64,000 bases of DNA from a virus. Made by a program: the position numbers and the translations under genes. Where the stretch lies: positions 114,009 to 178,008 of IMG/VR virus record IMGVR_UViG_3300025005_000002; one strand, 5' to 3'. The notes under the pieces were generated by a model. That model was given only the letters and a program-made list of their open reading frames with translations. It was not told the origin of the DNA and did not search any database. Numbering within the stretch: the first letter of the stretch is position 1; every line of letters begins with the position of its first letter. This document shows positions 13,324-30,305 of this stretch, in pieces.

Positions 13324-13541
13324 AGAATAAAAATGTATGGGATATTAAATCAATCGAGGACATTGAAATTCCAGAGATTTTTATGGAAAACGCTAAGATG
13401 GGTATTGCAAGGATTCAGTTTGAGTCCTTAAAGGTTAAGGAATTGCAGAAGTTGAATGAGAAACTTGATAGGTTAATTGCTGTTATGACACCGTCAAATG
13501 TTAAGGTTGCAAAAGGTTCTGCGAAGGGAGATGGACAGTGA
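13320..13541 (+). CDS. Hypothetical protein
   Basis: ATGA coupling at both ends. Confidence 0.5.
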   Translation: MKNKNVWDIKSIEDIEIPEIFMENAKMGIARIQFESLKVKELQKLNEKLDRLIAVMTPSNVKVAKGSAKGDGQ

Positions 13542-14011
13542 GTGTTAGCACACCAATTAAAGATGTTATAGTTAGGCCCCTTATTGTGCACCATGATGAT
13601 CGTGGGTATTTAATGGAGATACTTAGAGATGATAGCCCAACATTTACCAAATTTGGGCAAGTGTATTTAGTTGGTGATGTCGCTAGGGGTACTGTACGGG
13701 CTTTTCATAGACATAGTGAACTCGTTGATTGGTTCTTTATCTCTCATGGTGCTGCGAAATTCGTATTGGTAGATGGTCGAGAAGATTCTCCGACATATCG
13801 CAATTATCAGGTCATTGTTACTGGAGATCGTAAACCAGCATGTATCACAGTCCCTCCTGGTGTGTGGCATGGATGGATGGCACTTACTGATGATACACAG
13901 TTAATTAGTGTAGCTAGTAATTCGCATGATCCTTCTAAATTAGATGAGGAGAGAATCGCCCCAGATTACTTTAATTATATAAAGCGATTTTGGGACGTTG
14001 AATTTAAATGA
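13538..14011 (+). CDS. dTDP-4-dehydrorhamnose 3,5-epimerase-family cupin (RmlC-like)
   Basis: HHDDRGYLME, VRAFHRH, TVPPGVWHG cupin motifs. Confidence 0.85.
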   Translation: MSVSTPIKDVIVRPLIVHHDDRGYLMEILRDDSPTFTKFGQVYLVGDVARGTVRAFHRHSELVDWFFISHGAAKFVLVDGREDSPTYRNYQVIVTGDRKPACITVPPGVWHGWMALTDDTQLISVASNSHDPSKLDEERIAPDYFNYIKRFWDVEFK

Positions 14012-14604
14012 AAAATCATATGATGTATAATTGTTTTCTTGAGTACTTACAAAAGATTAAAGATTTGGGTGGTGATATTATTGAAGTAGGGGTACATAGA
14101 GGCAATTCATTAAAGGTGTTAGGGGCGATTACAAGAGATTTAAACATTAATAAAATTATTTATGGTGTAGATACCTTTTGTGGTATGCCGGATCGTGTTA
14201 TAGATGGATTAGATAACGGATATAATGAAAACGGCGAAATTACTCCTGGGGAAGGTGGGCATTATCCGGGTGATTTTAAAGATACATCACTTTTACAAGT
14301 GTCTAGGGCGGTTCCATGGGGGAATATCAAATTAATTCCAGGTGTATTTCCTGTGTGTGCTGATCAAATTAAGAGTGATAAATTCTGTTTTGCCCATGTT
14401 GATGTTGATATCTACAATTCATATAAAGATTCATATCAATATCTTTGGCCAAGAATCGTATCGGGTGGTGTTATAATTTGTGGTGATGATTACTTGTGTC
14501 CATGGTTAAAGGGTGCCAAAAAAGCGATTGATGAAGTAACTGCTGAATTTGGTGTTGTTCCTATCATTACACCAAAGGGACAACACGTTATAGTGAAACC
14601 ATGA
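14008..14604 (+). CDS. TylF/MycF/NovP-family sugar O-methyltransferase
   Basis: IEVGVHRG, DTFCGMP, FAHVDVDIY, GGVII..DDY. Confidence 0.88.
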   Translation: MKNHMMYNCFLEYLQKIKDLGGDIIEVGVHRGNSLKVLGAITRDLNINKIIYGVDTFCGMPDRVIDGLDNGYNENGEITPGEGGHYPGDFKDTSLLQVSRAVPWGNIKLIPGVFPVCADQIKSDKFCFAHVDVDIYNSYKDSYQYLWPRIVSGGVIICGDDYLCPWLKGAKKAIDEVTAEFGVVPIITPKGQHVIVKP

Positions 14605-15194
14605 AAAAGATACAATTTGGATCTGGTGGTAAGGATTGTTTTATTGATGGATGGGAAAATTATGATATAGATATAGATATTAGGAAGCCATTACCATTTG
14701 AAAATAATAGTGTGGATTTTGTGATGGCTGAGCATCTAATTGAACATGTTACGCAGCATGACGCCTATTTATTTTTTTTGGAGTGCAGACGGATTTTGAA
14801 ATCTGGTGGTACGGCCAGGATTATAGTGCCAGATATCAAAAGAATTTATGAGAATTGTAATGAAGAATACCGTGGGTTTGTTAGGCGGTGGTGGCCCGGT
14901 GAAAAACAATGGTATAATTCGAGGTATTGGGAATATAAAGAGAAAAATTGTAAAAAAGATAATCTTACTAATAGTGTTATAGCTGAACAAATGATATTTA
15001 ATTTTGCCCATGTGTCATTTTGGACTGCTGATTTATTGGTTACTGCTTTAAATATTGTGGGATTTAAAACTATAATTGAAGGATATGGGAAGTCGAGTAT
15101 CCCAGAATTAATCGGAGTTGATCGACATGGTATTGCAATTGGAATGGCCGCTACTATTATGGAGTCTATTGTAGTTGAGGCGACAAAGTCATGA
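14601..15194 (+). CDS. Class I SAM-dependent methyltransferase
   Basis: QFGSG, DIDIRKPLPF, AEHLIEH, RILKSGG...IIVPD. Confidence 0.85.
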   Translation: MKKIQFGSGGKDCFIDGWENYDIDIDIRKPLPFENNSVDFVMAEHLIEHVTQHDAYLFFLECRRILKSGGTARIIVPDIKRIYENCNEEYRGFVRRWWPGEKQWYNSRYWEYKEKNCKKDNLTNSVIAEQMIFNFAHVSFWTADLLVTALNIVGFKTIIEGYGKSSIPELIGVDRHGIAIGMAATIMESIVVEATKS

Positions 15195-15946
15195 TTTATA
15201 GTTCTATAATGTTCTTTAATGAACTTGATTTGCTTGATTTAAAGATTGCAGAAGAATCTCCATATGTAGACAAGATTTACATTACGGAGTCACCATTAAC
15301 ATTTACTGGCAATCAAAAACTACTTAATTTCCCGGTGGAAAAATATAAAGACAATGATAAAATAGTGTATTTAGTCACTCCAAAAGAGATATACAAAGAT
15401 TGTAAGGTCGCATGGGATAGGGAATTTTTGCAGAGAAATTATGCACAGGCTATAATACCATTTAATGATGATGATGTCTGTTTTGTTACTGATGCAGATG
15501 AAATAATTTGTGGGGATATGTTTCCCACTATACTTCATGGATTAAAAACATATCAATTTGTTGCGATGCATATGAAGTTTTGTATGTTTTATATTAATGT
15601 TGAAGTTGTAGGGCAGATTTGGGAGCCACCATTTGCTGCAAGGGGAAGGATGTGTAAGCAATATGCATTTCAAACTATGAGGAATAGAAAAGTAGGCACA
15701 AATAAAGTAATAGATAATTGTGGTAAGCATTTATCTTATTTAGGTGGTGAAGAAGCAATTAGGTTTAAATTAAGAAGTTATTCACATACAGAATGTGCTG
15801 TCCCAGAACGCGTAGCGTCCATTATTAATGATTTTAATATGGTAGGATATAATAATAATAGATTAAAAATAATAGAGGTAAATAGGTTTTATCCAAGGAT
15901 CATATTAGATAATTTAGATAGGTGGGAAAAATATATAAAGAGGTGA
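15191..15946 (+). CDS. Glycosyltransferase family 17-like (beta-1,4-GlcNAc transferase-like)
   Basis: MFFNELDLL...VDKIYITES..TFTG, REFLQRN, TDADEI (DxD), HLSYLGG. Confidence 0.82.
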   Translation: MIYSSIMFFNELDLLDLKIAEESPYVDKIYITESPLTFTGNQKLLNFPVEKYKDNDKIVYLVTPKEIYKDCKVAWDREFLQRNYAQAIIPFNDDDVCFVTDADEIICGDMFPTILHGLKTYQFVAMHMKFCMFYINVEVVGQIWEPPFAARGRMCKQYAFQTMRNRKVGTNKVIDNCGKHLSYLGGEEAIRFKLRSYSHTECAVPERVASIINDFNMVGYNNNRLKIIEVNRFYPRIILDNLDRWEKYIKR

Positions 15947-15949
15947 TTT

Positions 15950-16216
15950 ATGTTTAGTCATATTAAGGGATTGTGTAGGGTGTTTGGTGGTGTTGGTGAA
16001 GAAAGAGCGGAGAAAAGTAAGGTAGTAAATCACATAGTATTTGTAAAAAAAGGATCGGGGATTGATATGGTAAAACTCAAATCTATGGGGTTTCATGTTG
16101 TTGAAGGAGATTCAATAGAAGAGGGACGTGATTTCAAATTTATTGAAAGTGTACAAGTTACAACTACCTTCTATTCAAGAGAAGTAGAAGAGGAAGAAAA
16201 AGAAGGAGAAAGATAG
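15950..16216 (+). CDS. Hypothetical protein
   Basis: GAGGTG RBS; 88 aa with an acidic tail. Confidence 0.5.
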   Translation: MFSHIKGLCRVFGGVGEERAEKSKVVNHIVFVKKGSGIDMVKLKSMGFHVVEGDSIEEGRDFKFIESVQVTTTFYSREVEEEEKEGER

Positions 16217-17250
16217 TGGTACTCGTCCTTGGTGGGGCAGGCTATGTTGGGTCAGTGCTTGTTGAGGCGTTGTTGGATCAGGGGTATTCGGTTAGAGTTT
16301 ATGATAGGGAATATTATAATATAGATAATTCTAAATTTTCTAAGAAGGCAGATTATTGTTGGGGTGATGTAAGGGACATACGCCCAGAAATTTTTAATGG
16401 TATTGATGCAGTGATTAATCTTAGTGGCCTAAGTAATGATCCAACTGCAGAATATAATCCCGAAGCAAATAAGGAGATGAACACAGGGGCAACCATTAGT
16501 TCAGCAAAACAAGCTATAGACCTTGGGATAATGAGGTATGTTTTTGCCTCTAGTTGTTCAGTATACTATAGAGATATTAGCGGTACTGATATAGATGATG
16601 TTATATTGAATGAAAATGATAAAATTAGTCCAAAGGCTGCTTATTCTAAATCAAAATATGAGGCTGAACAAGGATTGTTACGTTTAGCCGGTGAATATAA
16701 AGGATTTTGTCCAGTTATTCTGAGAAAAGGGACTATATTTGGGTGGTCCCCAAGGATGCGCTATGATCTCGTTGTTAATACATTTGTCAAAGACGCACTT
16801 AAAACTGGGAAGATTACTATTCATAACGGTGGTGAGATGTGGCGTCCTATGCTTGAAATTAATGATGCTACTAGGGCTTATATTGCATGTCTCCAGGCGA
16901 AGGCTCCGAAGGTTAGAGGTCAGATCTTTAATGTTGCGTACAAAAATTTTAGGGTATCTGAGATTGCGTTAAGGACCGTAGAGGCATTGAAGAAACTTGG
17001 GATTAATGTTGAGATCGAAATTCAAAATTCGCTTGGTAGTGTAAGATCATACAGAGTATCGCTAGAGAAGGCTCGTAATGTCCTTGGCATAACACCATCA
17101 GTTACAATTGGTGAGTCGGTGGCCAATATGGTAAATAATATTAAGGCTGAAAAATACACAGATTTTGACAATCCTATATATTACAATATCCGTTGGCTCA
17201 AAACTCTCGAACATGCTAGTCGTATACTTATAAATGGGGAGGTATTTTAA
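16216..17250 (+). CDS. NAD-dependent nucleotide-sugar epimerase/dehydratase (extended SDR)
   Basis: GGAGYVG Rossmann motif, FASSCSVY, YSKSK (YxxxK). Confidence 0.9.
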   Translation: MVLVLGGAGYVGSVLVEALLDQGYSVRVYDREYYNIDNSKFSKKADYCWGDVRDIRPEIFNGIDAVINLSGLSNDPTAEYNPEANKEMNTGATISSAKQAIDLGIMRYVFASSCSVYYRDISGTDIDDVILNENDKISPKAAYSKSKYEAEQGLLRLAGEYKGFCPVILRKGTIFGWSPRMRYDLVVNTFVKDALKTGKITIHNGGEMWRPMLEINDATRAYIACLQAKAPKVRGQIFNVAYKNFRVSEIALRTVEALKKLGINVEIEIQNSLGSVRSYRVSLEKARNVLGITPSVTIGESVANMVNNIKAEKYTDFDNPIYYNIRWLKTLEHASRILINGEVF

Positions 17251-17553
17251 ATGATGATAATGAGTCATTGGGACTATCGTGTAGTTAGGAAAAATGTTTA
17301 TATGGGTAAAACAATCAGTCCAGAAGTTCAGTATGCAATATATGAAACGTATTATAATGATGAAGGCGAGCCTATTATGATTACTACTGATTATATGTCA
17401 CCATATGGTGAGACACCAGAGGAATTGAAGAGTGATTTGGAGAAAATGGTAGCAGCGCTAGATAAACCGGTGTTGAATTGGGGAGATTTTAAAAATAAAG
17501 AGATTGAGGTACCTACAAATGACAAAGTCATTGGCGGTGGTGATAGGCAGTAA
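17251..17553 (+). CDS. Hypothetical phage protein
   Basis: GGGAGGT RBS; WDYRVV...YAIYETYY..GEP. Confidence 0.55.
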   Translation: MMIMSHWDYRVVRKNVYMGKTISPEVQYAIYETYYNDEGEPIMITTDYMSPYGETPEELKSDLEKMVAALDKPVLNWGDFKNKEIEVPTNDKVIGGGDRQ

Positions 17554-18394
17554 CGGACAATTTGGGTCAGATATTGTTAAGGTTTTAAATGGGAAATTTA
17601 CGGTTAAGGCATTAACTCATAAAGATATTGATATTACCAAAAAGGCGTGTTATGATAGTATCGTTGCGCTTGAGCCTCAATATGTAATCAATACTGCGGC
17701 ATTTCATAATTTAAAGGCATGTGAAGAAGAACCAGATAAAGCATTTTTAGTGAATGCCTGGGGTGCGTTAAATTTAGCTAGGGCTTGTAATGATATAGGG
17801 GCCACACTGATTCATACCAGTACGGACCATGTGTTTGATGGTGAAACTGATCAGCCATATTTTGAGGATAGTAAGACTTGTCCGGTTAGTTCATATGGTA
17901 GGTCCAAGTTATTGGGTGAACAATTGGTAACTGCTTATATAAATAAGCATTATATATTGAGGGTGTCAACTTTATATGGATATGTACCACCAAGTGGTAA
18001 ACCATGGAATTTTATTGATATGGTTGTTGGGAAAGCGATTAAGAAAGAGAAGATGACCATTGTTAATATGCTTTATTCTTCACCAACGTTCACAGCCAAT
18101 GCAGCTAATAAATTACTTGCCATATTAACCAGAAAATTACCATATGGTGTATACCATTGTTCTGATGGTGGGGTTACATCTTTTTATGATTTGGCAGTTT
18201 TTATATGTAAATATTTAAATTTGGAGGTAGATATAGTCCCACTCACAGAACCACTAGATAGTGTGCCACGACCAAAATATTGTATTATGGGTGGTGCAAA
18301 ATTGGATGGTTTTGGTATACCATCTAGGCCATGGCAGGCATGTATAGCGGTTTATTTAAATAATAAGTATCCGGAGTATGCTCCTAAACGATAA
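17519..18394 (+). CDS. rmlD: dTDP-4-dehydrorhamnose reductase-like SDR
   Basis: GSNGQFG, NTAAFHN, HTSTDHVFDG, YGRSK, LRVSTLYG. Confidence 0.88.
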   Translation: MTKSLAVVIGSNGQFGSDIVKVLNGKFTVKALTHKDIDITKKACYDSIVALEPQYVINTAAFHNLKACEEEPDKAFLVNAWGALNLARACNDIGATLIHTSTDHVFDGETDQPYFEDSKTCPVSSYGRSKLLGEQLVTAYINKHYILRVSTLYGYVPPSGKPWNFIDMVVGKAIKKEKMTIVNMLYSSPTFTANAANKLLAILTRKLPYGVYHCSDGGVTSFYDLAVFICKYLNLEVDIVPLTEPLDSVPRPKYCIMGGAKLDGFGIPSRPWQACIAVYLNNKYPEYAPKR

Positions 18395-18421
18395 AAAAGC
18401 AAATATTTTATCGGGGAGCTA

Positions 18422-18976
18422 ATGTCGCCAGCTAAAATTAAGCAAAAATGTGTTGAATGTGGTGTTGTATTTGAAAGATCTAAGTTTAATCCATATTTGG
18501 ATCGATGTGAAAAACACAGGATATCAAATAAAAAAGTAAGGGTACAAGTTGAAGGACCAGTTAAGAAACTGGCAAAGAAGACGAAAAAAGAGGAACCTCA
18601 ACAAATAATATTGCCAGTTCCATCATTAACTAATTTTAAACCAATTGTTGTTACCATAGAAAAGGAGAAGATTTATTTACATCTTTTATCTCGTGGATGG
18701 CAATTATCAACCAGTAATAAATTATTTAAGAAGACAGACAAAGTAAACGTCGTAGCTACTCTTGGGTCAGATGGATCACAATCACAAAAGTTTACTGCTA
18801 GTTTTTGGGGTGGCGATAAATTTAGTGGGTTTGATGGTAGTTTGTCTATAGTGGAGAGGGCACAGTTGAAAAAGTTACCATCAGAAATAACTAATGATTT
18901 AGAAGATATTATAAATTTAATTTGGCCGATTGGAGAGAATGATGAGAAAGAGTGCGGAGAAAAGAAAAGAATATAA
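18422..18976 (+). CDS. Hypothetical protein with an N-terminal CxxC finger
   Basis: CVECG...RCEKH. Confidence 0.5.
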   Translation: MSPAKIKQKCVECGVVFERSKFNPYLDRCEKHRISNKKVRVQVEGPVKKLAKKTKKEEPQQIILPVPSLTNFKPIVVTIEKEKIYLHLLSRGWQLSTSNKLFKKTDKVNVVATLGSDGSQSQKFTASFWGGDKFSGFDGSLSIVERAQLKKLPSEITNDLEDIINLIWPIGENDEKECGEKKRI

Positions 18977-19616
18977 TAAGAAGGCTTGGCCCAAATATAT
19001 TAATCGGATTGGAAAAGAGGAGAGGTCTAAACGGCAGATAGTGTCGTATATTAAAAATAGAGATAAAGTACAGGCAAGGCATAAAATAAGAAGGGTAGAG
19101 ATCTGTGAGTTTGTGGACGAGCAAAAGAAAGGAAAACAGTGTGCCTATTGTGGCAATGTGGATTGGAGGGTATTAGAATTCCATCATCTGGGCGATAAAG
19201 ATATGTGGGTTAGTATTATGCGGAAGTACGCATGGGGCAGGGATAAAATCTTGGCTGAGATTGCTAAGTGTGTTATATTGTGCACCAATTGTCATAAGAT
19301 TCTTCACCACGAAGAGAGACAAACAGAACAGGTAGCGAGTGGCTGGAAATGCAGTAGGGCCAGAAGGGCCGCTGCGTATAAACTAGTTGATGATTATAAG
19401 AAGAAGAGTAAGTGTATCAAGTGTGGAAATAATGATTGGCGTGTGTTAGAATTTAATCATAGGGACCCAGCGACCAAAAGTGGTGATATTGGTCGTATGC
19501 GTAGTGACGGGTGTACCAAGAAACTTGTGATAGAGATGGCGCAATGCGATATGTACTGCGGTAACTGTCATAAACTATATCATTTAGGAGAATGTGGTGA
19601 TGCAGAAAAGGACTAA
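18942..19616 (+). CDS. Tandem double-HNH endonuclease
   Basis: Two CxxCGNxDWRVLEFxH...CxxxCxNCH repeats. Confidence 0.8.
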   Translation: MRKSAEKRKEYNKKAWPKYINRIGKEERSKRQIVSYIKNRDKVQARHKIRRVEICEFVDEQKKGKQCAYCGNVDWRVLEFHHLGDKDMWVSIMRKYAWGRDKILAEIAKCVILCTNCHKILHHEERQTEQVASGWKCSRARRAAAYKLVDDYKKKSKCIKCGNNDWRVLEFNHRDPATKSGDIGRMRSDGCTKKLVIEMAQCDMYCGNCHKLYHLGECGDAEKD

Positions 19617-24203: not shown

Positions 24204-24204
24204 T

Positions 24205-24408
24205 ATGCCAAAGACAATAGTTACTGGGGCAATGAATGTTAGTGTTGATGTGCGTGAGGTTATGAATAGTTATGTGTGTAATAAAGTTGGGATAGGGGAG
24301 GGGCAGTATGCAGATCCAAAATTTGCACTAGATGATTTAGGGGCTATGCTTGTTTCTCTTGGAAAAGATAGGGGGATCAAAATTAAAGTAGTGATAGACC
24401 ATAAATGA
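24205..24408 (+). CDS. Hypothetical protein
   Basis: GGGAG RBS before ATG 24205. Confidence 0.5.
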   Translation: MPKTIVTGAMNVSVDVREVMNSYVCNKVGIGEGQYADPKFALDDLGAMLVSLGKDRGIKIKVVIDHK

Positions 24409-25439
24409 AAATCCTCATAGTTGGAGACATCCACATTGATGGAAATTGGACCGAAGATACTGATGAAGTTTTGTCTAAAATAACCGGGTTTGCGTATGGA
24501 TGTGAGAAAGTTATTCTCCTTGGGGACATATATCATCGTAGGGATGTACAAAAGGGAGGGAAAGAAGAAGCCAGATTTCATAGATTTTTGGGGTCTTTAC
24601 CAAGAGAAGCCGAGATTCATATATTAACTGGTAATCATGATCTATCTGATGAGCGCAATCTATTGGCGGAAGTCAAAACCTTTCCATTTATTCAAAGGAT
24701 ATATTTATATGATGAACTGAGCATACCATTTTCTATTGGTGACAAATTAGCCGTAATGTTGCCATGGGAAGTTCATCGTAGGACTGATACTGTTGAATGG
24801 TTTAAATCTAAGTGTGAATATTTAAAAACACTCAATGAAAAGTTTATATTATTTGCACATCTGCCGTTGATTGAGGCCAAGTTTAATAATACTAAAATGA
24901 TTAGTAATCAAGCAAAGAATTTCCCTTCAGTTAAATTATTAGAAGCGATACCAAATTTTGAGTTTGCATTTCTTGGTGATATTCATTTACCACAAGATGT
25001 TGGTCATCGTGCAATATATGTTGGAGGGATTAGAAATATAAATTTTGCAGAAAATGGCGATAAACGGGTTATATTGTTTGATACAGATAAAATGGTTGGT
25101 ACCAATTTATGGCTTGGTTGCAGGGATACGTATATGGCTGATATTAAGATGGCCGACCTTAAGGGTTTATTATTAGATCCAATACTTACCAATAAAATGG
25201 TAAAATTGAAGGTGCACTGTACACAGGAGGAATATGAAAGAGGGATAGAATTAATAGATCATAAGGCGTATGATCTAAAAATAGATTATGAGATACAGGG
25301 TAAAAAAGAGTTTAAAAGCCTCGATATAACTGATGATGACCGTATGTTTTATATGTATTGTGATACATTGTCTGGGAAGTATGGTGTCAATATAATAGAT
25401 AAAGTTAAAATTATTGGTAGGGATATTATTAATGGATGA
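24405..25439 (+). CDS. sbcD: SbcD/Mre11-like nuclease
   Basis: GDIH, LGD, GNHD, AHL, GDIH phosphoesterase motifs; adjacent to an SMC-like ATPase. Confidence 0.88.
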   Translation: MKILIVGDIHIDGNWTEDTDEVLSKITGFAYGCEKVILLGDIYHRRDVQKGGKEEARFHRFLGSLPREAEIHILTGNHDLSDERNLLAEVKTFPFIQRIYLYDELSIPFSIGDKLAVMLPWEVHRRTDTVEWFKSKCEYLKTLNEKFILFAHLPLIEAKFNNTKMISNQAKNFPSVKLLEAIPNFEFAFLGDIHLPQDVGHRAIYVGGIRNINFAENGDKRVILFDTDKMVGTNLWLGCRDTYMADIKMADLKGLLLDPILTNKMVKLKVHCTQEEYERGIELIDHKAYDLKIDYEIQGKKEFKSLDITDDDRMFYMYCDTLSGKYGVNIIDKVKIIGRDIING

Positions 25440-25755
25440 TAATAACGGGTTTAGGGATAAAGTAATCGCTATGTATGAACATAGGCAGGCATTTGGATGC
25501 CCTACTATGAAATGCAAGTCTTTACAAGATACCATTTTAAAAGAAAGTAATGATAATACATATGAATTATGTTTAAGTATAAGTGTCCTATTATTTTTAA
25601 ATAATATAGAAATCAATGATGGGGTATTGGGTGATATGGCTGCATTGGTATATAGAAATAATATAAAATATGGCATAAAATGTGCTTCTACTTCATTTGA
25701 AATATGCCAGGCATGTGCGGTAAGCAAATTAATTAATAATAAGGATGTACAATAG
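25432..25755 (+). CDS. Hypothetical protein
   Basis: ORF between sbcD and sbcC with overlapping start and stop codons. Confidence 0.45.
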   Translation: MDDNNGFRDKVIAMYEHRQAFGCPTMKCKSLQDTILKESNDNTYELCLSISVLLFLNNIEINDGVLGDMAALVYRNNIKYGIKCASTSFEICQACAVSKLINNKDVQ

Positions 25756-27905
25756 TGAGGCTTATACTTAATAATTTTTTATCATATGGGGACAATGTTG
25801 TTGTGGACATTTCTCCTGGGGTTACGTTAATCCGTGGAGATAATGGTGTTGGTAAATCTGGGTTACTGGAGGCATTCACATATGCTATCTGGGGTAAAGC
25901 ACGCGGAACTTCTGAGTTTCCTGGTGGAGATCACCTTATACGTGATAGCAATAGAAATATGTCTGTGGAACTTGGATTATCCTCGTCCAATCAAGTTAAA
26001 ATCACTCGTGGTCGTGATGATCTTGCTACTAATCTTTCTATTAATTTATGTGGTGCGGATCAACAATTTGTTACTTTAGATGGTGGCGAGAAGATAATCA
26101 ATAATATAGTTGGTATGGGGTATGATACATTTGTTAAGACTGCATATTTTCAACAAGGTAAAGATAAGGCATTTTCCGAATTAACATCTACAGAATCACG
26201 CAAAAAAGTTGTTGAAATGCTTGGATTAGATCGTTGGCAAGAGAAGCAAGCAATAGCATCGAAAAAATTAGATGAGATTAAAAAACAAATTACAAAATAT
26301 AAGATTATTATGGATAGTATAGATAATAAGGTTTTAACTGCTGAAATAGAGCAGGCTACCACAGAGACCAAAGATACACAAAATAAGATTAATATTGCTG
26401 GGCTTGAATTAGAGATTACTAAAAATATGTTAACTAGTGCCCGATTTAATGCGTCAGCATTATCAGATAAAATTAGTGCTATAAGTGCTCAGGTTGCATT
26501 GGAAGAGGAAAAGCGGAAAGCATTAACTATTGTTAAGCTAGAGATTGAAGATTATTCGCAAAAAATGTGGAATCTTAGGAAACAGTTAAAGGTTAATGTT
26601 GATAGGGGCATTGCTATCAATATTAATATGAAAGCATTGCAAGAGCAGATAGATAGGGTAGATATTGGGGTCATAGTGGAGCTCCAAGAAAGAGATCGGG
26701 TGACGTTAATATCGCATCGAAATGTTTTATTAAATAAGAAAGATGCTTTAAGAGATATGACTAATCAAATATCAACCATGGAGAAGCAGAGAGATAACTT
26801 AACCACATGTGGGATGGAATGCCCAGTGTTGGGTACTAAATGTGAAATGTTGGGGCAAGATAGATTACAAGAGAGAGTCAAAAAAATAAATGAAGATATT
26901 GCCTATATGACTATTGACATGCTTAGTTTGGGGGAAGACATAAATAAACTGCAGCTTAAAATTTCTATATATGAAGCCAACATAAATAAATATGAGAATA
27001 TAAAGACTGATTATGCTACAAATGTATCGAAATTAGATGGGCTTGCTTTAGAGCGCAAGGGGATTGATGAATTAATTACTTCAACTAAATCAAATGTTGA
27101 TAATATTAATACTTTAATGCAAAATACTAATATTAAATATGCTTCGGTATCAACAGAATTAGAACAAATAAAGACTGGGATGATTACGGTTGTTAATCTT
27201 AGACAAGAGTATACCAAGGTTAATGCTGATGTTTCCACATTAGAGAAAGAGTTAAAAGGTAGAGAAGATGATATTAAAAAATTAAATAATACTATAGCTT
27301 CAGATGAGGCCAAGATAAAAATAAATACAGGGAAATTAAAAGAATTTGATAAATTTTCTTCTCTCTGTGATGGGTGTATTAATGAACAACATATATATGA
27401 CATATTAACTATAGCATTTGGCCCAAATGGTGTACCAGCTATGCAGATAGAGGCTATGAAGGATCAGATTGAGGTATTGGCTAATAATATACTGCAGTAT
27501 GGTGGGCAGAAATTGTCAGTGTCGATACTTTTAAAGGAACCGAAGAAATCAGGAGATGGTGTAAAAGATGTATTTAAGATCTTGGTAAAGACTGGAGATA
27601 GGGTAATTCCCCTATTTAGGCTCTCTGGTGGGGAGGCTTATTGGGTTGATCTTAGTGTCCGTGCAGCATTGTTTCTTGTGTGGCGTGTGCGAAACCCAGA
27701 TAATATATTAGATATTTTAATGATAGATGAAGGGCTTGGTAAGATAGATGATGGGAAACGTAGGATATTGGTAGATGTACTTAAATATTTATCTACTAAG
27801 GTAAAACGAGTACTCGTCATAACTCATACGGATCTTAAAAATTTGGTGGATGAGTTTGATAATGTGATCACAGTTAGTAAAATTGATGGTGTGAGTACGG
27901 TATAA
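25755..27905 (+). CDS. sbcC: SbcC/Rad50-like SMC ATPase
   Basis: Walker A GDNGVGKS, YFQQ Q-loop, long coiled coil, LSGGE signature, LMIDEGLG Walker B, ITH. Confidence 0.9.
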   Translation: MRLILNNFLSYGDNVVVDISPGVTLIRGDNGVGKSGLLEAFTYAIWGKARGTSEFPGGDHLIRDSNRNMSVELGLSSSNQVKITRGRDDLATNLSINLCGADQQFVTLDGGEKIINNIVGMGYDTFVKTAYFQQGKDKAFSELTSTESRKKVVEMLGLDRWQEKQAIASKKLDEIKKQITKYKIIMDSIDNKVLTAEIEQATTETKDTQNKINIAGLELEITKNMLTSARFNASALSDKISAISAQVALEEEKRKALTIVKLEIEDYSQKMWNLRKQLKVNVDRGIAININMKALQEQIDRVDIGVIVELQERDRVTLISHRNVLLNKKDALRDMTNQISTMEKQRDNLTTCGMECPVLGTKCEMLGQDRLQERVKKINEDIAYMTIDMLSLGEDINKLQLKISIYEANINKYENIKTDYATNVSKLDGLALERKGIDELITSTKSNVDNINTLMQNTNIKYASVSTELEQIKTGMITVVNLRQEYTKVNADVSTLEKELKGREDDIKKLNNTIASDEAKIKINTGKLKEFDKFSSLCDGCINEQHIYDILTIAFGPNGVPAMQIEAMKDQIEVLANNILQYGGQKLSVSILLKEPKKSGDGVKDVFKILVKTGDRVIPLFRLSGGEAYWVDLSVRAALFLVWRVRNPDNILDILMIDEGLGKIDDGKRRILVDVLKYLSTKVKRVLVITHTDLKNLVDEFDNVITVSKIDGVSTV

Positions 27906-27916
27906 AGGAGGTATAA

Positions 27917-28141
27917 ATGGTCTGGAAATATCGCAGGAGGATAGTTAAGATATTAAACGGTGTAGAGATTGATATCGCTGGATTGTGTGAAATTAAAGAA
28001 GGTGATTTATTTAAGATGTATAACGATGGGGACCAATTGGATGATGATTATACAACTGGTAGGATTTGGATTGCCAGATCAAATCCAATCCCAAGTAAAG
28101 AATATGATTTATTGTACGAAATACAGGGAGAAGCAATGTGA
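27917..28141 (+). CDS. Hypothetical protein
   Basis: AAGGAGGT RBS. Confidence 0.5.
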   Translation: MVWKYRRRIVKILNGVEIDIAGLCEIKEGDLFKMYNDGDQLDDDYTTGRIWIARSNPIPSKEYDLLYEIQGEAM

Positions 28142-28680
28142 TGTGTACTGGGAATATTATTGAGTTTGGGTGTAAGGTTATCACTGAGGAACTTGTTTTT
28201 AATAAAACAATTTTAGATGTTGGTGCGTATGATGTTAATGGATCTTTGAAAGATATGGTAATGAAGTTTAATCCGAGATTATATGTTGGGGTTGATATAA
28301 GAGAAGGACCCAATGTTGATATTGTGTGTGATATATCTGATATAGAACATCTATTTGAGATGGAATCATTTGATGTGGTTATATGTACGGAAGTGTTGGA
28401 GCATGTGGAAAATTGGCGTGTTGCCATAGATAATTTAAGGCAGGTAGTAAAATCAGGTGGGTTTATTCTAATAACAGTTCCTACTATTGGGTTCCCTTAT
28501 CATGGGTATCCTAATGATTACTGGCGGTTTACATTAGATAATTTCAGAGACATATTTAGTGATTTTGATTGGATTGCATGGCAGCAGCATAATGACCCAG
28601 GTATTTGTATATTAATTCGTAAACCAATCGGGTATCAATATACGCTTACGTCAAGTACTATGGAGGTTGCGCGTGTTTGA
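28138..28680 (+). CDS. Class I SAM-dependent methyltransferase
   Basis: ILDVGA, GVDI..GPNVD, CTEVLEHV, HGYPNDYWRF. Confidence 0.88.
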   Translation: MMCTGNIIEFGCKVITEELVFNKTILDVGAYDVNGSLKDMVMKFNPRLYVGVDIREGPNVDIVCDISDIEHLFEMESFDVVICTEVLEHVENWRVAIDNLRQVVKSGGFILITVPTIGFPYHGYPNDYWRFTLDNFRDIFSDFDWIAWQQHNDPGICILIRKPIGYQYTLTSSTMEVARV

Positions 28681-28885
28681 TTGGAAGCAATTTAGTATTT
28701 ATTTATTTAGATGGCAACTATCAACTATTACTCTAGCCCCGTGTATTTATTATTTGAATCCAAGAATAGGGGCTATTTTCTCTACAATTATTGCCAATTT
28801 TGTTGGTGGTGTGATATTCTATTTTGTGGATAAATATTTAATATTTAAGGAGGGAAATAATGCCAGTGTCAAAATTCAATCTTAA
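28673..28885 (+). CDS. Small two-TM GtrA-like membrane protein
   Basis: GGAGG RBS before GTG 28673; RWQLST...IIANFVGGVIFYFVDKYLIF resembles half of a GtrA domain. Confidence 0.5.
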   Translation: MFDWKQFSIYLFRWQLSTITLAPCIYYLNPRIGAIFSTIIANFVGGVIFYFVDKYLIFKEGNNASVKIQS

Positions 28886-29222
28886 TAAGTATTTTGATTT
28901 TAAGGGTATTATTGCTATGGTTGTTGGGCTTTCTGTATTAATCGGGTCAGTCCTTGGAGTAAATGCATATTTTGCAAAGGATCGAGAGTTTAAAGCATAT
29001 GTAGTTTCTGTGGATCGGAGATTTGCTGAGTCAGACACCAGGTTACTAATATATCAGGCGGAGCAATCGAAATCTTATGTACAGGAAAAGATATGGAAAG
29101 TACAAGATAGGGTGGAGCAAAAGCCTGGTGATATCGAATCTAAACATAAGTTACGTGAATTACAAAATGAAAAAGAGGAACTAGATATTAGGATACAAGA
29201 TTTGAAGAATGGCAAACAGTAA
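28860..29222 (+). CDS. Single-TM coiled-coil protein
   Basis: AGGAGG RBS; one hydrophobic helix followed by a charged coiled coil. Confidence 0.55.
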   Translation: MPVSKFNLNKYFDFKGIIAMVVGLSVLIGSVLGVNAYFAKDREFKAYVVSVDRRFAESDTRLLIYQAEQSKSYVQEKIWKVQDRVEQKPGDIESKHKLRELQNEKEELDIRIQDLKNGKQ

Positions 29223-30055
29223 TGGAAATATCTGGGTCAATGTTTATACACAATGCAATTAAGCAAGATTATTGTATTGAGGCAGTAGCCGCTAGTTTTT
29301 CTGATTTATGTGAGGAAGTGATTATCCTGGATGCGGAAAGTGATGATGATACTGTCGATTTATTATATGAGATAGCAAAAAAATATAATAATGTTAAGGT
29401 TCATACTGGGGCAAAATGGGCATGCGAGAGACCTGGGCGTAGTGGGTATGATAGGTATGCAGTATTAGCTGATCAAGCCAGGGCTCTAACAAGACATCAA
29501 ATACATTTTATGATACAAGCAGATGAGGTTTTGCACGAAGATTCAATTCCAATTATATATAATTCTTTAATTAGTGATCCAAGAACATCATATGCAATTG
29601 CTAGGTATAATATATTCGGTAGTCCAGACAAATACTTAAGGTTTGATTCAAAACAACTTACTGGGCACGAACAGCCATGCAGTATTTGGCCAATAAGGTT
29701 GGGCGATAGGGGGCTTGTTGCATTAGGGGATGCAGAGAGTATTACTCCTGGTAATAAGCCTGGTAGGTTACCCGTTGATGCGTGTTTATTCCATTATTGC
29801 CATGTTAGAGATTTAAGGAAACAACTAGATAGGGTGTCGGCTATCCAAGATTGGTTCTTTAGTAATACCGGTAGTGGTGGGGAGGTTGATAAAAGGATAG
29901 TTGAGCAAAAAGCAACTACTGGGTATTTTGATGCTCGTGTGTGGTATCCAGATGATCGGTGTTTTATCCCAATCCCTAAACCGCATCCAAAATGTGCATT
30001 ACCATGGGTTGAAAAACAACGTAAGCAATTTGAGGAGATATTTGGCAATGGATAA
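29222..30055 (+). CDS. Glycosyltransferase family 2-like
   Basis: IHNAI..DYC, ILDAESDDDT, QADEVL (DxD-like), FHYCHVR. Confidence 0.78.
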   Translation: MEISGSMFIHNAIKQDYCIEAVAASFSDLCEEVIILDAESDDDTVDLLYEIAKKYNNVKVHTGAKWACERPGRSGYDRYAVLADQARALTRHQIHFMIQADEVLHEDSIPIIYNSLISDPRTSYAIARYNIFGSPDKYLRFDSKQLTGHEQPCSIWPIRLGDRGLVALGDAESITPGNKPGRLPVDACLFHYCHVRDLRKQLDRVSAIQDWFFSNTGSGGEVDKRIVEQKATTGYFDARVWYPDDRCFIPIPKPHPKCALPWVEKQRKQFEEIFGNG

Positions 30056-30305
30056 AGTGAAGTTGTATTTCATTAGTTTGGGGTATGGTATTGCTAATTT
30101 TTTACGTGGATTAGATATTTTGGTTAATTCAATCTTGGGTGGAGATGGCAGGGAAACAATATCTAGTCGTCTTGGGAAGTATAGACATGGGCATCCAGGA
30201 GTTGAGTTTGTAGCTAAGATTGTTGATAAAATATTCTTTTGGGAAAAAAATCATACCAACACACATGAAAATCCTACTGTGGGGGATAAACAGACGTGGA
30301 ATTAA
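30048..30305 (+). CDS. Conserved-looking hypothetical phage protein
   Basis: GAGGAG RBS before ATG 30048; LDILVNSILGGDGRETISSRLGK. Confidence 0.6.
   Translation: MDKVKLYFISLGYGIANFLRGLDILVNSILGGDGRETISSRLGKYRHGHPGVEFVAKIVDKIFFWEKNHTNTHENPTVGDKQTWN

What the first reader, a model, noticed from the sequence alone, without database searches (positions are those of the whole stretch)
13538..30055. Phage-encoded sugar synthesis, methylation and transfer set woven into the replication module
Seen: an RmlC-like epimerase, TylF O-methyltransferase, two class I methyltransferases, GT17-, GT4- and GT2-like transferases, an NDP-sugar epimerase/dehydratase, RmlD and a GtrA-like protein. They are interleaved and translationally coupled with dnaE, sbcCD and thyX. 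Known: RmlC/RmlD make NDP-deoxysugars, TylF enzymes O-methylate sugars, and phages glycosylate DNA bases, virion proteins or host surfaces. Inference: a complete pathway for a methylated deoxy-sugar glycan. Co-expression with replication genes favours DNA hypermodification; virion or cell-surface glycosylation are the alternatives.
Basis: partly seen in the sequence, partly recalled or inferred. Interest (0 to 1): 0.82.

Follow-up and report, generated by a model that had tools for sequence, protein, structure and literature searches.

The report
Phage sugar-coating kit, probably for virions
A 178-kb uncultured phage carries about a dozen genes for reshaping, transferring and methylating sugars, mixed in with its DNA-replication genes. 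The evidence suggests they coat the phage's own tail or particle proteins with methylated sugars, not its DNA, but no chemistry has been measured.

Summary
Window 13538-30055 encodes an RmlC-like cupin, a TylF-like O-methyltransferase, two class I methyltransferases, GT17-, GT4- and GT-A-type transferases, a GalE/Cj1427-like SDR and RmlD. They are interleaved and start/stop-coupled with dnaE, sbcCD and thyX. Only the "GtrA-like" call lacks HMM support.

- The pathway is not complete: the phage has no RmlA, RmlB or other nucleotidyltransferase.
- DNA hypermodification is disfavoured. There is no ThyA-type hydroxymethylase/hydroxylase, TET/JBP dioxygenase or C5-methylase. 27 of 28 other viral records with the GT-A homolog also lack ThyA and TET/JBP.
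- In those phages the homologous GT-A + methyltransferase module lies in structural operons: after the portal, between head and tail genes, or among baseplate and tail genes.
- This phage has one more enzyme outside the window, a GT2-GT9-methyltransferase fusion in its tail-fibre block. There, [IV][ST]GG is about 7-fold over-represented.
- No integrase was found, which argues against lysogenic surface conversion.

Best reading (about 0.5): glycosylation of virion proteins, probably tail proteins, with a methylated rhamnose-type glycan. This scan has flagged similar cassettes on other phage DNA. Novelty: a new variant of a known kind.

The parts
13538..14011 (+). RmlC-like cupin (157 aa), a 3ejk-type 'dTDP-sugar isomerase/epimerase'
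   Evidence: PF00908 2e-15. Best PDB match is 3ejk at 5.5e-16. The His of the F-H-R-H stretch aligns with the RmlC catalytic His, but the RmlC Lys73 and Tyr133 equivalents are not conserved. TIGR01221 scores only 33.7 bits against a cut-off of 155.75.
14008..14604 (+). Minimal TylF/NovP/MtfD-type sugar O-methyltransferase (198 aa)
   Evidence: PF05711 48.8 bits, cut-off 23. PDB hits are NovP 6e-10 and MycF, with the D-x-D...DDY metal site kept and the N-terminal ~90-aa lid absent. 29% identity to the M. avium rhamnose O-methyltransferase MtfD, 4e-13. Homologs lie within ~3 kb of the GT-A homolog in 9 other viral records.
14601..15194 (+). Class I SAM methyltransferase (Methyltransf_11 type, 197 aa)
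   Evidence: PF08241 8e-9. 35% identity to a homolog sitting next to GT17 and GT-A homologs in L170.
15191..15946 (+). GT17-like glycosyltransferase (251 aa)
   Evidence: PF04724 68.6 bits, cut-off 26. The D-x-D-E motif is invariant in A1. Relatives of 58-67% identity occur in metagenomes. At least 473 viral loci at 24-39% identity, usually in sugar islands with SDRs, GT11, GT25 and DegT.
16216..17250 (+). NAD-dependent SDR (344 aa): NDP-sugar 4-epimerase or C4-dehydrogenase, not a 4,6-dehydratase
   Evidence: PF01370 1e-31. Best PDB matches are 6vo6, a putative sugar-nucleotide epimerase/dehydratase (Cj1427 of C. jejuni, from my memory), and 6wjb, deposited as an NAD-dependent epimerase/dehydratase family protein (a UDP-GlcNAc 4-epimerase, from my memory). 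GxxGxxG and YxxxK are present. S-S-C-S replaces the RmlB S-T-D-E residues.
17519..18394 (+). RmlD-type dTDP-4-dehydrorhamnose reductase (291 aa from the ATG; the ORF opens at 17504)
   Evidence: PF04321 1e-64. TIGR01214 213.3 bits against a 224 cut-off. GxxGxxG, S-T-D and YxxxK are present. Phage-type relatives reach 57-87% identity, then identity drops to <=42% for cellular RmlD.
18930..19616 (+). Duplicated HNH-like zinc-finger protein (228 aa), preceded by a 184-aa Zn-ribbon ORF at 18422-18976. Probably a selfish insert, not a pathway enzyme
   Evidence: Two C..CG..WRVLEF.H...C.NCHK..H repeats are visible in the translation. The Pfam HNH hit is only marginal.
19594..20667 (+). GT4-type (GT-B) glycosyltransferase (357 aa), stop overlapping the dnaE start
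   Evidence: PF00534/PF13692. 14,477 homologs. The nearest (about 30% identity) are domains of 700-3600-aa multi-GT proteins (GT4x3, GT4+GT2, GT4+GT9), which points to a chain-extending enzyme. A homolog lies in the L170 head-tail module.
20667..27905 (+). Interleaved replication and repair genes: DnaE (20667-24203), SbcD (24405-25439), SbcC (25755-27905) and small ORFs. Not part of the glycan set
   Evidence: Pfam.
28138..28680 (+). Class I SAM methyltransferase (Methyltransf_23/11, 180 aa)
   Evidence: Homologs lie beside the GT-A homolog in 6 other loci.
28667..29222 (+). Two small membrane proteins: a 72-aa two-TM ORF (28667-28885, 'GtrA-like' lead only) and a 120-aa TM + coiled-coil ORF (28860-29222)
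   Evidence: Hydropathy. No Pfam GtrA hit. Atlas score 0.91 to viral 'GtrA fragment' clusters. Neither is conserved next to GT-A homologs elsewhere, apart from one weak hit.
29222..30055 (+). GT-A fold glycosyltransferase of a small, mostly viral family (277 aa)
   Evidence: Only 15 proteins were found by the word-indexed search of 5.8e9 proteins. Invariant motifs in A2 are S-x-D-x-T (DAESDDxT in the closest relatives), Q-A-D-E-V-x-H-E, H-Y..R and H-P. AlphaFold pLDDT is 92.5. Top Foldseek hits are SunS/ThuS peptide S-glycosyltransferases, Listeria RmlT (a TDP-rhamnose WTA rhamnosyltransferase), SpsA, ppGalNAc-T2 and TarS/TarP. 28 IMG/VR loci at 32-40% identity.
30296..30973 (+). ThyX (225 aa) with an atypical active-site loop. 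A neighbour, not shown to belong to the set
   Evidence: PF02511 1e-24. Aligned to T. maritima ThyX, R-H-R becomes R-H-V with an 8-residue insertion, and Tyr91 becomes Gly.

Best explanation
The genes form a phage-borne protein-glycosylation kit that decorates the phage's own virion, most likely the tail and fibre proteins, with a short O-methylated glycan containing a rhamnose-type 6-deoxyhexose.

Proposed steps (all inferred unless marked):
1. The host supplies an activated sugar, dTDP-4-keto-6-deoxyglucose or another NDP-sugar. The absence of RmlA and RmlB in the phage is shown.
2. The cupin and RmlD convert it to dTDP-L-rhamnose or an epimer. The GalE/Cj1427-like SDR supplies a second, epimerised sugar.
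3. Soluble transferases act in the cytoplasm on newly made structural proteins. One initiates on Ser/Thr. The candidates are the GT-A enzyme or the GT9-like domain of the 727-aa GT2-GT9-methyltransferase fusion encoded in the tail block at G000:C1:23935-26118.
4. GT17, GT4 and GT2 extend the chain.
5. The TylF-like methyltransferase and the three class I methyltransferase domains O-methylate the sugars after transfer, as TylF-family enzymes do.

The glycan would shield or stabilise exposed virion surfaces or tune adsorption. Placement among replication genes reflects gene shuffling (an HNH-like insert lies inside the set) and early supply of enzymes, not a DNA target.
For: 1. All transferases and methyltransferases lack TM segments, so the acceptor is cytoplasmic.
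2. Homologs of the GT-A enzyme (32-40% identity) occur in 28 IMG/VR records. In 18 of them structural genes lie within 10 kb.
   - Nine loci have a T4-like portal just upstream or nearby (PF07230 1e-62), with the order GT-A, MT23, TylF.
   - Seven have the module just after a candidate tape-measure protein and a ConA-lectin-domain tail-type protein; both Pfam hits are weak.
   - In L170, homologs of GT-A, GT17, MT11 and GT4 lie between head protease/major head protein and a minor tail protein.
   - In L168 the module lies between a baseplate wedge and a tail spike.
3. The phage carries a GT2 + GT9-like + Methyltransf_11 fusion in its S/T-rich tail-fibre-like block. Full-length homologs (29% identity over 714 aa, E 1e-68) sit directly beside GT-A homologs in other phages. 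This fusion family accompanies GT-A in 19 of 33 loci.
4. Precedents:
   - Corndog has an O-methyltransferase, two GTs and a GlcNAc-transferase between portal and protease (PMC4351075).
   - Capsid and tail glycans have been shown in mycobacteriophages (Freeman 2023, as cited in PMC12619734 and PMC11256854).
   - PBCV-1 A064R is a GT-A + GT + methyltransferase fusion, and A061L is a 209-aa methyltransferase. Together they build a di-O-methyl-rhamnose cap on the capsid glycan, and they are early genes (PMC9614988).
5. The TylF-like enzyme is closest to rhamnose/deoxysugar O-methyltransferases MtfD, NovP and MycF.
6. [IV][ST]G is 2.4-fold enriched in the tail block (54 observed, 22 expected) but not elsewhere. 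[IV][ST]GG is 17 observed against 2.3 expected. A second GT-A/TylF/MT23 phage (G019) shows 66 against 20 in its tail region. Lambda and SPP1 tail regions show 5/5 and 7/4.
7. The GT9-like domain has an invariant CxxC-x12-C-x14-C module. This recalls the iron finger of the protein heptosyltransferase TibC, which modifies Ser in N-S-G-G (PMC4358343).
8. No tyrosine or serine integrase was found in this phage or in the other GT-A phages.
Against: - No chemistry exists. The acceptor is inferred from gene neighbourhood in other phages, and Pyle et al. also found DNA-modifying GT clusters next to structural genes.
- In this phage itself, ten of the genes sit among replication genes and are coupled to dnaE.
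- No sequence homology to the Corndog/Che8 enzymes was found.
- Fold neighbours of the GT-A enzyme include teichoic-acid transferases as well as peptide transferases.
- The GT9-like domain is structurally nearer WaaF/3tov (TM 0.66-0.71) than TibC (0.50-0.55), and its Cys4 segment is modelled poorly.
- The motif enrichment was found post hoc, has only two controls, and could be a structural feature of beta-rich fibres.
- Group B's tape-measure and ConA-domain hits are weak, and the tail block of this phage is poorly annotated.
- The host is unknown, so the supply of dTDP-4-keto-6-deoxyglucose is assumed.
Confidence: 0.5

Rival explanations
1. Host envelope remodelling. The soluble transferases modify lipid-linked or polymer precursors (wall teichoic acid, O-antigen, capsule or S-layer glycan) on the cytoplasmic face during infection. 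This would change the cell surface to block superinfection or keep progeny from sticking to debris. The small membrane proteins at 28667-29222 would help at the membrane.
For: - Foldseek neighbours of the GT-A enzyme include Listeria RmlT (TDP-rhamnose to WTA), TarS and the prophage-encoded TarP.
- GT4's nearest relatives are multi-GT polysaccharide-synthase-like proteins.
- GT9 and GT17-island partners (GT11, GT25, DegT) are typical LPS/CPS families.
- A 72-aa two-TM ORF resembles viral 'GtrA fragment' clusters, and a TM coiled-coil protein lies next to the GT-A gene.
Against: - No GtrA HMM hit.
- No GtrB-type TM-anchored GT2, and no GT-C, Wzx/Wzy/ligase-like multi-TM protein in the region.
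- The two membrane ORFs are not conserved beside GT-A homologs elsewhere.
- No integrase in this phage or in the other GT-A phages, 8 of them at least 90% complete. Known surface-converting phage GTs are prophage genes.
- Embedding between portal, head and tail genes in several lineages is not expected for host-surface genes, though morons do sit after tail genes.
Confidence: 0.17
2. DNA hypermodification. The transferases glycosylate a base in phage DNA and the methyltransferases methylate the sugar, protecting the genome from nucleases.
For: - The genes are interleaved and coupled with dnaE, sbcCD and thyX.
- Phage DNA glycans of up to three sugars, made by repurposed GT-A and GT-B enzymes, are known. 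Phages can encode NDP-sugar supply for them (10.1101/2023.12.21.572611; PMC13326640).
- The adjacent ThyX has an unusual active-site loop.
- Earlier scan notes suggest that the phage already edits its nucleotide pool (PurZ-like; unchecked here).
Against: - No ThyA-family enzyme, TET/JBP or C5-methylase is present to create a hydroxyl acceptor.
- Among 28 other viral records with the GT-A homolog, 0 have ThyA. One has TET/JBP, about 34 kb away from the GT-A gene.
- No ThyX lies next to GT-A homologs elsewhere.
- O-methylated sugars and deoxyhexoses are not among the DNA glycans described in the two DNA-glycosylation papers read here.
- A fifth and sixth transferase domain and a fourth methyltransferase domain are encoded in the tail block.
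Confidence: 0.08
3. The acceptor is something else: a small molecule or lipid (glycolipid or secondary-metabolite-like product), or a host protein. The set would be an auxiliary metabolic module unrelated to the virion.
For: - TylF-family enzymes are best known from antibiotic deoxysugar tailoring.
- GT17-like genes in marine phage sugar islands have no assigned acceptor.
- No acceptor is identified directly here.
Against: - No aglycone-forming genes are present.
- Linkage to structural genes recurs across lineages.
- There are multiple chain-extending transferases.
Confidence: 0.08

Closest known systems
Mycobacteriophage virion glycosylation cassettes (Corndog gp35-38; Che8-type GTs; Freeman et al. 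2023)
   Same: These are phage-encoded soluble glycosyltransferases plus an O-methyltransferase. In Corndog they sit between portal and protease, as the homologous GT-A/MT23/TylF module does after the portal in nine IMG/VR loci. The enzymes are not virion components, and glycans were found on capsid and tail-tube subunits (PMC4351075, PMC12619734, PMC11256854).
   Different: No detectable sequence homology. The set here is far larger: five or six GT domains, four methyltransferase domains and three NDP-sugar-modifying enzymes. In this phage it is split between the replication region and the tail block. Nothing has been shown experimentally.
Chlorovirus PBCV-1 A064R + A061L (capsid N-glycan rhamnosyl/methyl cap) and Mimivirus fibril glycosylation clusters
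   Same: A064R is a tri-domain GT-A + second GT + SAM-methyltransferase protein, and A061L is a separate ~200-aa methyltransferase. Together they make O-methylated rhamnose on a virion protein. The genes are expressed early. The virus encodes part of the sugar-nucleotide supply (PMC9614988). The 727-aa GT2-GT9-MT11 fusion plus TylF/MT11/MT23 follows the same logic.
   Different: This is an analogy only. No sequence match was found in the PDB search. The hosts are eukaryotic, the glycans are N-linked, and the UDP-rhamnose route differs.
Phage DNA sugar hypermodification clusters (T4 alpha/beta-GT; 5hmC-glycan BGCs of Pyle et al.; arabinosyl-5hoC of RB69/DLP3)
   Same: Both involve GT-A and GT-B enzymes recruited from cell-envelope families, sometimes with phage-encoded NDP-sugar synthesis, placed near replication genes.
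   Different: The defining acceptor-forming enzyme (a ThyA homolog, or C5-MT + 5mYOX) is absent here and in 27 of 28 related records.
Bacterial autotransporter heptosyltransferases (TibC/AAH, BAHT)
   Same: Both have a GT9-type fold with a four-cysteine insertion near the end of the C-lobe. BAHTs are cytoplasmic O-glycosyltransferases acting on Ser in beta-helix turns such as N-S-G-G (PMC4358343). The phage tail block is enriched in [IV][ST]GG.
   Different: The phage domain is structurally nearer WaaF/3tov than TibC. It lacks the BAHT N-terminal beta-barrel and is fused to GT2 and methyltransferase domains. Metal binding and oligomer state are unknown.
dTDP-L-rhamnose pathway RmlABCD
   Same: An RmlD near-equivalog and an RmlC-superfamily cupin are present.
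   Different: RmlA and RmlB are absent. The cupin is of the 3ejk type and lacks two RmlC catalytic positions.
gtrABC / TarP-type serotype-converting phage genes
   Same: Phage-borne GT2-like enzymes. TarP is among the structural neighbours of the GT-A enzyme.
   Different: No GtrA HMM hit, no membrane-anchored GtrB, no GtrC and no integrase.

Membership tests
dTDP-L-rhamnose pathway (RmlABCD) | RmlA glucose-1-phosphate thymidylyltransferase | tested here: not met
   PF00483 and PF12804 have no match in the whole 178-kb record; the controls are positive.
dTDP-L-rhamnose pathway (RmlABCD) | RmlB dTDP-glucose 4,6-dehydratase (SDR with T-D-E and YxxxK) | tested here: not met
   There are only two SDRs in the genome. 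The 344-aa one has S-S-C-S in place of S-T-D-E and matches epimerase/dehydrogenase structures best.
dTDP-L-rhamnose pathway (RmlABCD) | RmlC 3,5-epimerase with the His/Lys/Tyr/Asp catalytic set | tested here: inconclusive
   The Pfam family hit is 2e-15, but TIGR01221 scores 33.7 bits against 155.75. The best structure is 3ejk, a 'dTDP sugar isomerase'. The His aligns; the Lys73 and Tyr133 equivalents do not.
dTDP-L-rhamnose pathway (RmlABCD) | RmlD 4-reductase | tested here: met
   PF04321 218 bits. TIGR01214 scores 213.3 bits, just under its 224 cut-off. The cofactor and catalytic motifs are present.
Phage DNA sugar hypermodification cluster | Acceptor-forming enzyme: ThyA-family dNMP hydroxymethylase or 5-hydroxylase | tested here: not met
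   PF00303 is absent in G000 and in 28 of 28 records with the GT-A homolog.
Phage DNA sugar hypermodification cluster | Post-replicative route: C5-cytosine methyltransferase + TET/JBP (5mYOX) | tested here: not met
   PF00145 and PF12851 are absent in G000. TET/JBP is present in 1 of 28 related records, about 34 kb from the GT.
Phage DNA sugar hypermodification cluster | Glycosylated base in virion DNA | not testable with these tools
   Needs LC-MS or raw long-read signal.
Phage virion glycosylation cassette (Corndog/Che8 type) | Phage-encoded soluble GTs with sugar O-methyltransferase | tested here: met
Phage virion glycosylation cassette (Corndog/Che8 type) | Location within or beside virion structural genes | tested here: inconclusive
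   Met for the 727-aa fusion in the tail block and for homologous modules in 18 of 28 other phage loci. The window cassette itself lies among replication genes, and its last part lies 2.8 kb upstream of TerL.
Phage virion glycosylation cassette (Corndog/Che8 type) | Sequence homology to the characterised enzymes | tested here: not met
   tblastn of the GT17 and TylF-like proteins against 50,697 phage records found no mycobacteriophage hits.
Phage virion glycosylation cassette (Corndog/Che8 type) | Glycans on capsid or tail proteins | not testable with these tools
   There is only a motif-enrichment lead.
TylF/NovP/MycF sugar O-methyltransferases (PF05711) | Family HMM above cut-off and metal-binding Asp residues | tested here: met
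   48.8 bits against a cut-off of 23. D-V-D-I-Y-N-S and G-D-D-Y align to the NovP D-G-D-L-Y-E-S and D-D-Y.
TylF/NovP/MycF sugar O-methyltransferases (PF05711) | N-terminal helical lid domain | tested here: not met
   The match starts at profile position 89 of 264. The viral homologs are all about 200-235 aa.
CAZy GT17 (PF04724) | Family HMM above cut-off with a conserved DxD | tested here: met
gtrABC serotype-conversion system | GtrA (PF04138) flippase-like protein | tested here: not met
   No hit at E<=5. There is only an embedding-based lead.
gtrABC serotype-conversion system | Membrane-anchored GtrB, multi-TM GtrC, temperate phage | tested here: not met
   There are no TM segments in any GT and no integrase or resolvase.
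Bacterial autotransporter heptosyltransferases (BAHT) | GT9-type GT-B fold | tested here: met
   Foldseek hits: 3tov, WaaF, TibC and WaaC.
Bacterial autotransporter heptosyltransferases (BAHT) | Cys4 iron finger inserted in the C-lobe | tested here: inconclusive
   CxxC-x12-C-x14-C is invariant in 10 homologs, against TibC CxxC-x15-C-x11-C. The segment has pLDDT 51-64, and metal binding is untested.
Bacterial autotransporter heptosyltransferases (BAHT) | Closer to TibC than to LPS heptosyltransferases; N-terminal beta-barrel | tested here: not met
   TM score is 0.66-0.71 to WaaF/3tov and 0.50-0.55 to TibC. The N-terminus is a GT2 domain.

The most novel reading that the evidence does not exclude
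The set glycosylates the phage's DNA by a route that needs neither a ThyA homolog nor a TET enzyme. For example, the neighbouring atypical ThyX (R-H-V plus an 8-residue loop insertion, Tyr91 to Gly) could make a hydroxylated or hydroxymethylated pyrimidine. The transferases would then load this base with a methylated deoxyhexose glycan, in a genome that may also use 2-aminoadenine.
Probability: 0.06. Interest if true: 0.9.

Novelty: new variant of a known kind. Interest (0 to 1): 0.45.

Why it matters
Virion glycosylation has been shown so far in only a few cultured phages (mycobacteriophages) and in giant viruses. This analysis links a small, almost purely viral GT-A family, a lid-less TylF-like methyltransferase and a GT2-GT9-methyltransferase fusion into one module. 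The module recurs in large uncultivated phages, usually inside head or tail operons.

If these enzymes do coat tail fibres with methylated deoxysugars, sugar shields on phage particles would be widespread. That would matter for adsorption, particle stability, recognition by defence or immune systems, and the engineering of therapeutic phages.

The work also gives a concrete candidate acceptor motif, [IV][ST]GG in tail proteins, that can be tested by co-expression and mass spectrometry. Finally, it shows that GT genes lying next to replication genes are a poor predictor of DNA modification.

Tried and rejected
- A megablast of the region against 50,697 phage records found nothing. DnaE finds only relatives of at most 35% identity.
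- Close relatives of the phage exist in metagenomes: 57-87% identity for GT17, RmlD and GT-A. Direct synteny in the nearest relatives therefore rests on matching contig lengths:
  - 5,258 bp for the GT17 and RmlD homologs;
  - 97,798 bp for the GT-A and RmlD homologs.
- The promoter and terminator scan was no better than shuffled sequence, so transcription units are undefined.
- My first 'RNR next to GT-A' hits in other loci turned out to be intein matches inside a T4-like portal gene.
- PHROG annotation of the tail block of this phage gave almost nothing.
- A PDB sequence search with GT4, GT-A and the 727-aa fusion gave no informative GT hit.
- The BAHT idea was tested by fold and is only partly supported.
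- Rejected: recent capture from a host LPS locus. The nearest cellular RmlD is at most 42% identical, while phage-type relatives reach 57-87%. Composition also matches the rest of the phage.
- Rejected: a gtrABC-like system.

Full report
**Setting.** The window is bases 114009-178008 of a 178,008-bp IMG/VR phage record estimated to be 92% complete. Almost all genes are on the + strand, with uniform GC (0.34-0.40) and GC skew. The window runs through these genes in order:
- primase-helicase;
- an intein-bearing ribonucleotide reductase (8940-12500);
- the region in question;
- ThyX;
- terminase (32885-35839);
- portal;
- a 5,840-aa MuF-type protein;
- scaffold;
- major capsid protein.

No cultured phage is related at the DNA level.

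| Window coordinates | Assignment |
|---|---|
| 13538-14011 | RmlC-superfamily cupin |
| 14008-14604 | TylF-family O-methyltransferase |
| 14601-15194 | Methyltransf_11 enzyme |
| 15191-15946 | GT17-like transferase with an invariant DxD |
| 16216-17250 | SDR epimerase-type enzyme |
| 17519-18394 | RmlD, a near-equivalog |
| 19594-20667 | GT4-type transferase |
| 28138-28680 | Methyltransf_23/11 enzyme |
| 29222-30055 | GT-A enzyme |

The GT-A assignment rests on an AlphaFold model (pLDDT 92.5) and Foldseek, not on the weak Pfam hit. DnaE, SbcD, SbcC and ThyX lie between and after these genes. Starts and stops overlap by 1-4 nt or abut throughout.

The one item I could not confirm is the 'GtrA-like' 72-aa ORF. 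It has no PF04138 hit even at E<=5. It has only an embedding-based resemblance (0.91) to viral clusters auto-named 'GtrA fragment'.

A 184-aa Zn-ribbon ORF and a 228-aa protein with two HNH-like repeats sit between RmlD and GT4. They look like a selfish insertion.

**What the enzymes are.**
- *RmlD.* It has its cofactor and catalytic motifs.
- *The cupin.* Its best match is 3ejk, a 'dTDP sugar isomerase'. It lacks two RmlC catalytic positions, so it may be a mono-epimerase or isomerase.
- *The SDR.* It has S-S-C-S where RmlB has S-T-D-E. Its best structural matches are 6vo6, a putative sugar-nucleotide epimerase/dehydratase (Cj1427 of C. jejuni, from my memory), and 6wjb, deposited as an NAD-dependent epimerase/dehydratase family protein (a UDP-GlcNAc 4-epimerase, from my memory). 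It is therefore not a 4,6-dehydratase.
- *Missing steps.* The whole phage has no PF00483 or PF12804 nucleotidyltransferase and only these two SDRs. The pathway is therefore not complete and must start from a host NDP-sugar, most simply dTDP-4-keto-6-deoxyglucose.
- *The TylF-like enzyme.* It keeps the metal-binding Asp motifs of NovP and MycF but lacks the N-terminal lid. Its only hit in the phage collection is a misfiled M. avium record, where it matches the rhamnose O-methyltransferase MtfD (29% identity, 4e-13).
- *GT4.* Its nearest relatives are domains of very large multi-GT proteins, which suggests chain extension.

**Not a recent host capture.** RmlD, GT17 and the GT-A enzyme each have relatives of 57-87% identity in metagenomes. 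For RmlD there is then a gap down to at most 42% identity for cellular homologs. Matching contig lengths suggest that the GT17 and RmlD homologs share a 5,258-bp contig. They also suggest that the GT-A and RmlD homologs share a 97,798-bp contig.

**Testing the DNA reading.** The literature I read says that sugar hypermodification of phage DNA starts from one of two sources. One is a hydroxylated base made by a ThyA homolog. The other is C5-methylase plus 5mYOX/TET. Such pathways are usually clustered (10.1101/2023.12.21.572611; PMC13326640).

This phage has none of these enzymes. Among the 28 IMG/VR records that carry a GT-A homolog at 32-40% identity, none has ThyA. Only one has TET/JBP, and it lies about 34 kb from the GT. 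ThyX is not a neighbour of the GT-A gene in any other lineage.

**Where the module lives elsewhere.** I clustered the ORFs of 33 loci around GT-A homologs and annotated the recurrent neighbours.
- Nine viral loci have a T4-like portal gene (1e-62, itself split by an intein) just upstream or nearby. In the fullest version, a few small ORFs follow the portal, then GT-A, two unknowns, MT23, two unknowns and TylF.
- Seven loci have a candidate tape-measure protein, a 977-aa ConA-lectin-domain protein, a Methyltransf_24 enzyme, a GT2+GT9 fusion, GT-A and a CmcI/rhamnosyl-O-methyltransferase-like enzyme.
- L170 contains homologs of four of this phage's enzymes (GT-A, GT17, MT11, GT4). There the module lies between head protease/major head protein and a minor tail protein.
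- In L168, a complete 253-kb phage, the module lies between a baseplate wedge subunit and a tail spike.

TylF-like genes occur in 9 of the 28 records, always within about 3 kb of GT-A.

**A missed component.** Searching the neighbours back against this genome revealed a 727-aa protein at G000:C1:23935-26118, outside the window. It has GT2, GT9-like and Methyltransf_11 domains.

It lies among S/T-rich ORFs of unknown function between a 1,674-aa ORF and a DNA ligase. I take this block to be the tail-fibre block, although PHROG support is thin. Full-length homologs sit directly beside GT-A homologs in other phages.

The phage thus has five or six GT domains and four sugar-type methyltransferase domains. 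The architecture GT-A + GT-B + methyltransferase mirrors PBCV-1 A064R. That enzyme, together with the small methyltransferase A061L, builds the di-O-methyl-rhamnose cap of the capsid glycan and is expressed early (PMC9614988).

**Leads on the acceptor.** Two leads came from earlier scan notes, and I tested both here.
- *Motif enrichment.* [IV][ST]G is enriched 2.4-fold in the tail block (54 against 22 expected from within-protein shuffles). It is not enriched in the middle (36/32) or the head block (12/12). [IV][ST]GG is 17 against 2.3 in the first 40 kb and 4 against about 2.9 elsewhere. A second phage with GT-A, TylF and MT23 (G019) shows 66 against 20 in its terminal 27 kb. Lambda and SPP1 tail regions show 5/5 and 7/4. 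The pattern was chosen post hoc and there are only two controls.
- *Cys4 module.* The GT9-like domain carries an invariant CxxC-x12-C-x14-C module. TibC, a GT9-related protein O-heptosyltransferase, has a CxxC-x15-C-x11-C iron finger used for substrate recognition, and it modifies Ser in N-S-G-G (PMC4358343). However, the modelled domain (pLDDT 84) is closer to WaaF/3tov than to TibC. The resemblance stays an analogy.

**Against surface conversion.** None of the transferases has a TM segment, and no GtrB/GtrC-like proteins exist. No tyrosine integrase was found in this phage or in any of the 28 GT-A-bearing records. No serine recombinase was found in this phage or in the 19 of those records tested, which include all that are at least 90% complete. 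The fold neighbours of the GT-A enzyme include both peptide transferases (SunS, ThuS, ppGalNAc-T2) and teichoic-acid transferases (RmlT, TarS, TarP). The fold therefore does not decide the acceptor.

| Reading | Confidence |
|---|---|
| Virion-protein glycosylation kit making a methylated, rhamnose-type glycan, most likely on tail proteins | about 0.5 |
| Host envelope remodelling | about 0.17 |
| DNA hypermodification | about 0.08 |
| Another acceptor | about 0.08 |

This scan has flagged comparable phage GT/methyltransferase cassettes on other DNA, with the same tentative reading. Those notes are leads, not evidence. Relative to published work (Corndog, Che8, PBCV-1), this is a new variant of a known kind. 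It is larger, uses unrelated enzyme families, includes partial deoxysugar synthesis, and is scattered through replication and tail regions.

Noticed in passing
G000:C1:23935-26118 (outside the window; L196:5935-8118): A 727-aa GT2 + GT9-like + Methyltransf_11 fusion with an invariant CxxC-x12-C-x14-C module lies in the tail-fibre-like block. Its homologs sit next to GT-A homologs in many phages.
   Followed up: yes
G000:C1:1-31880 (tail block, outside the window): [IV][ST]G is 2.4-fold over-represented and [IV][ST]GG about 7-fold in tail-block proteins only. A second GT-A-bearing phage (G019, 130-157 kb) shows the same. Lambda and SPP1 do not.
   Followed up: partly
window 30296-30973: ThyX has R-H-V plus an 8-residue insertion in place of the canonical R-H-R...S loop, and Gly where T. 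maritima ThyX has Tyr91. Its activity may differ from standard dTMP synthesis.
   Followed up: partly
window 18422-19616: A Zn-ribbon ORF and a protein with two HNH-like CxxC...H repeats are wedged between RmlD and GT4. This is probably a homing-endonuclease-type insert that helped to break up the sugar cluster.
   Followed up: no
window 8940-12500 and 32885-35839: The ribonucleotide reductase carries an intein (PF14890). The 984-aa terminase has an internal segment (residues about 118-368) that matches intein-bearing proteins, so it may also be intein-split.
   Followed up: no
L173:3704-5896 and equivalents (L090, L171, L172, L175): T4-like portal genes in other GT-A-bearing phages are interrupted by an intein. 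This produced false 'RNR' hits in my first synteny screen.
   Followed up: partly
window 38178-55700: A single 5,840-aa ORF lies between the portal and scaffold genes. It was already examined by another follow-up in this scan.
   Followed up: no
window 30970-32247: A 425-aa protein has a weak sigma-70 region-4 hit and a treble-clef zinc ribbon, just upstream of the terminase. It may be a late-gene regulator.
   Followed up: no
phages collection record AF143772.2: A Mycobacterium avium glycopeptidolipid gene cluster (mtfB/C/D) is filed among the phage records. It was the only 'phage' hit for the TylF-like protein.
   Followed up: no
L005-L084 (GT17 loci): GT17-like genes are common in viral contigs (at least 473 loci), often in several copies per locus. 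They come with DUF5672, GT11, GT25, DegT aminotransferase, SDRs and sometimes PhoH, forming a widespread viral sugar island with no known acceptor.
   Followed up: partly
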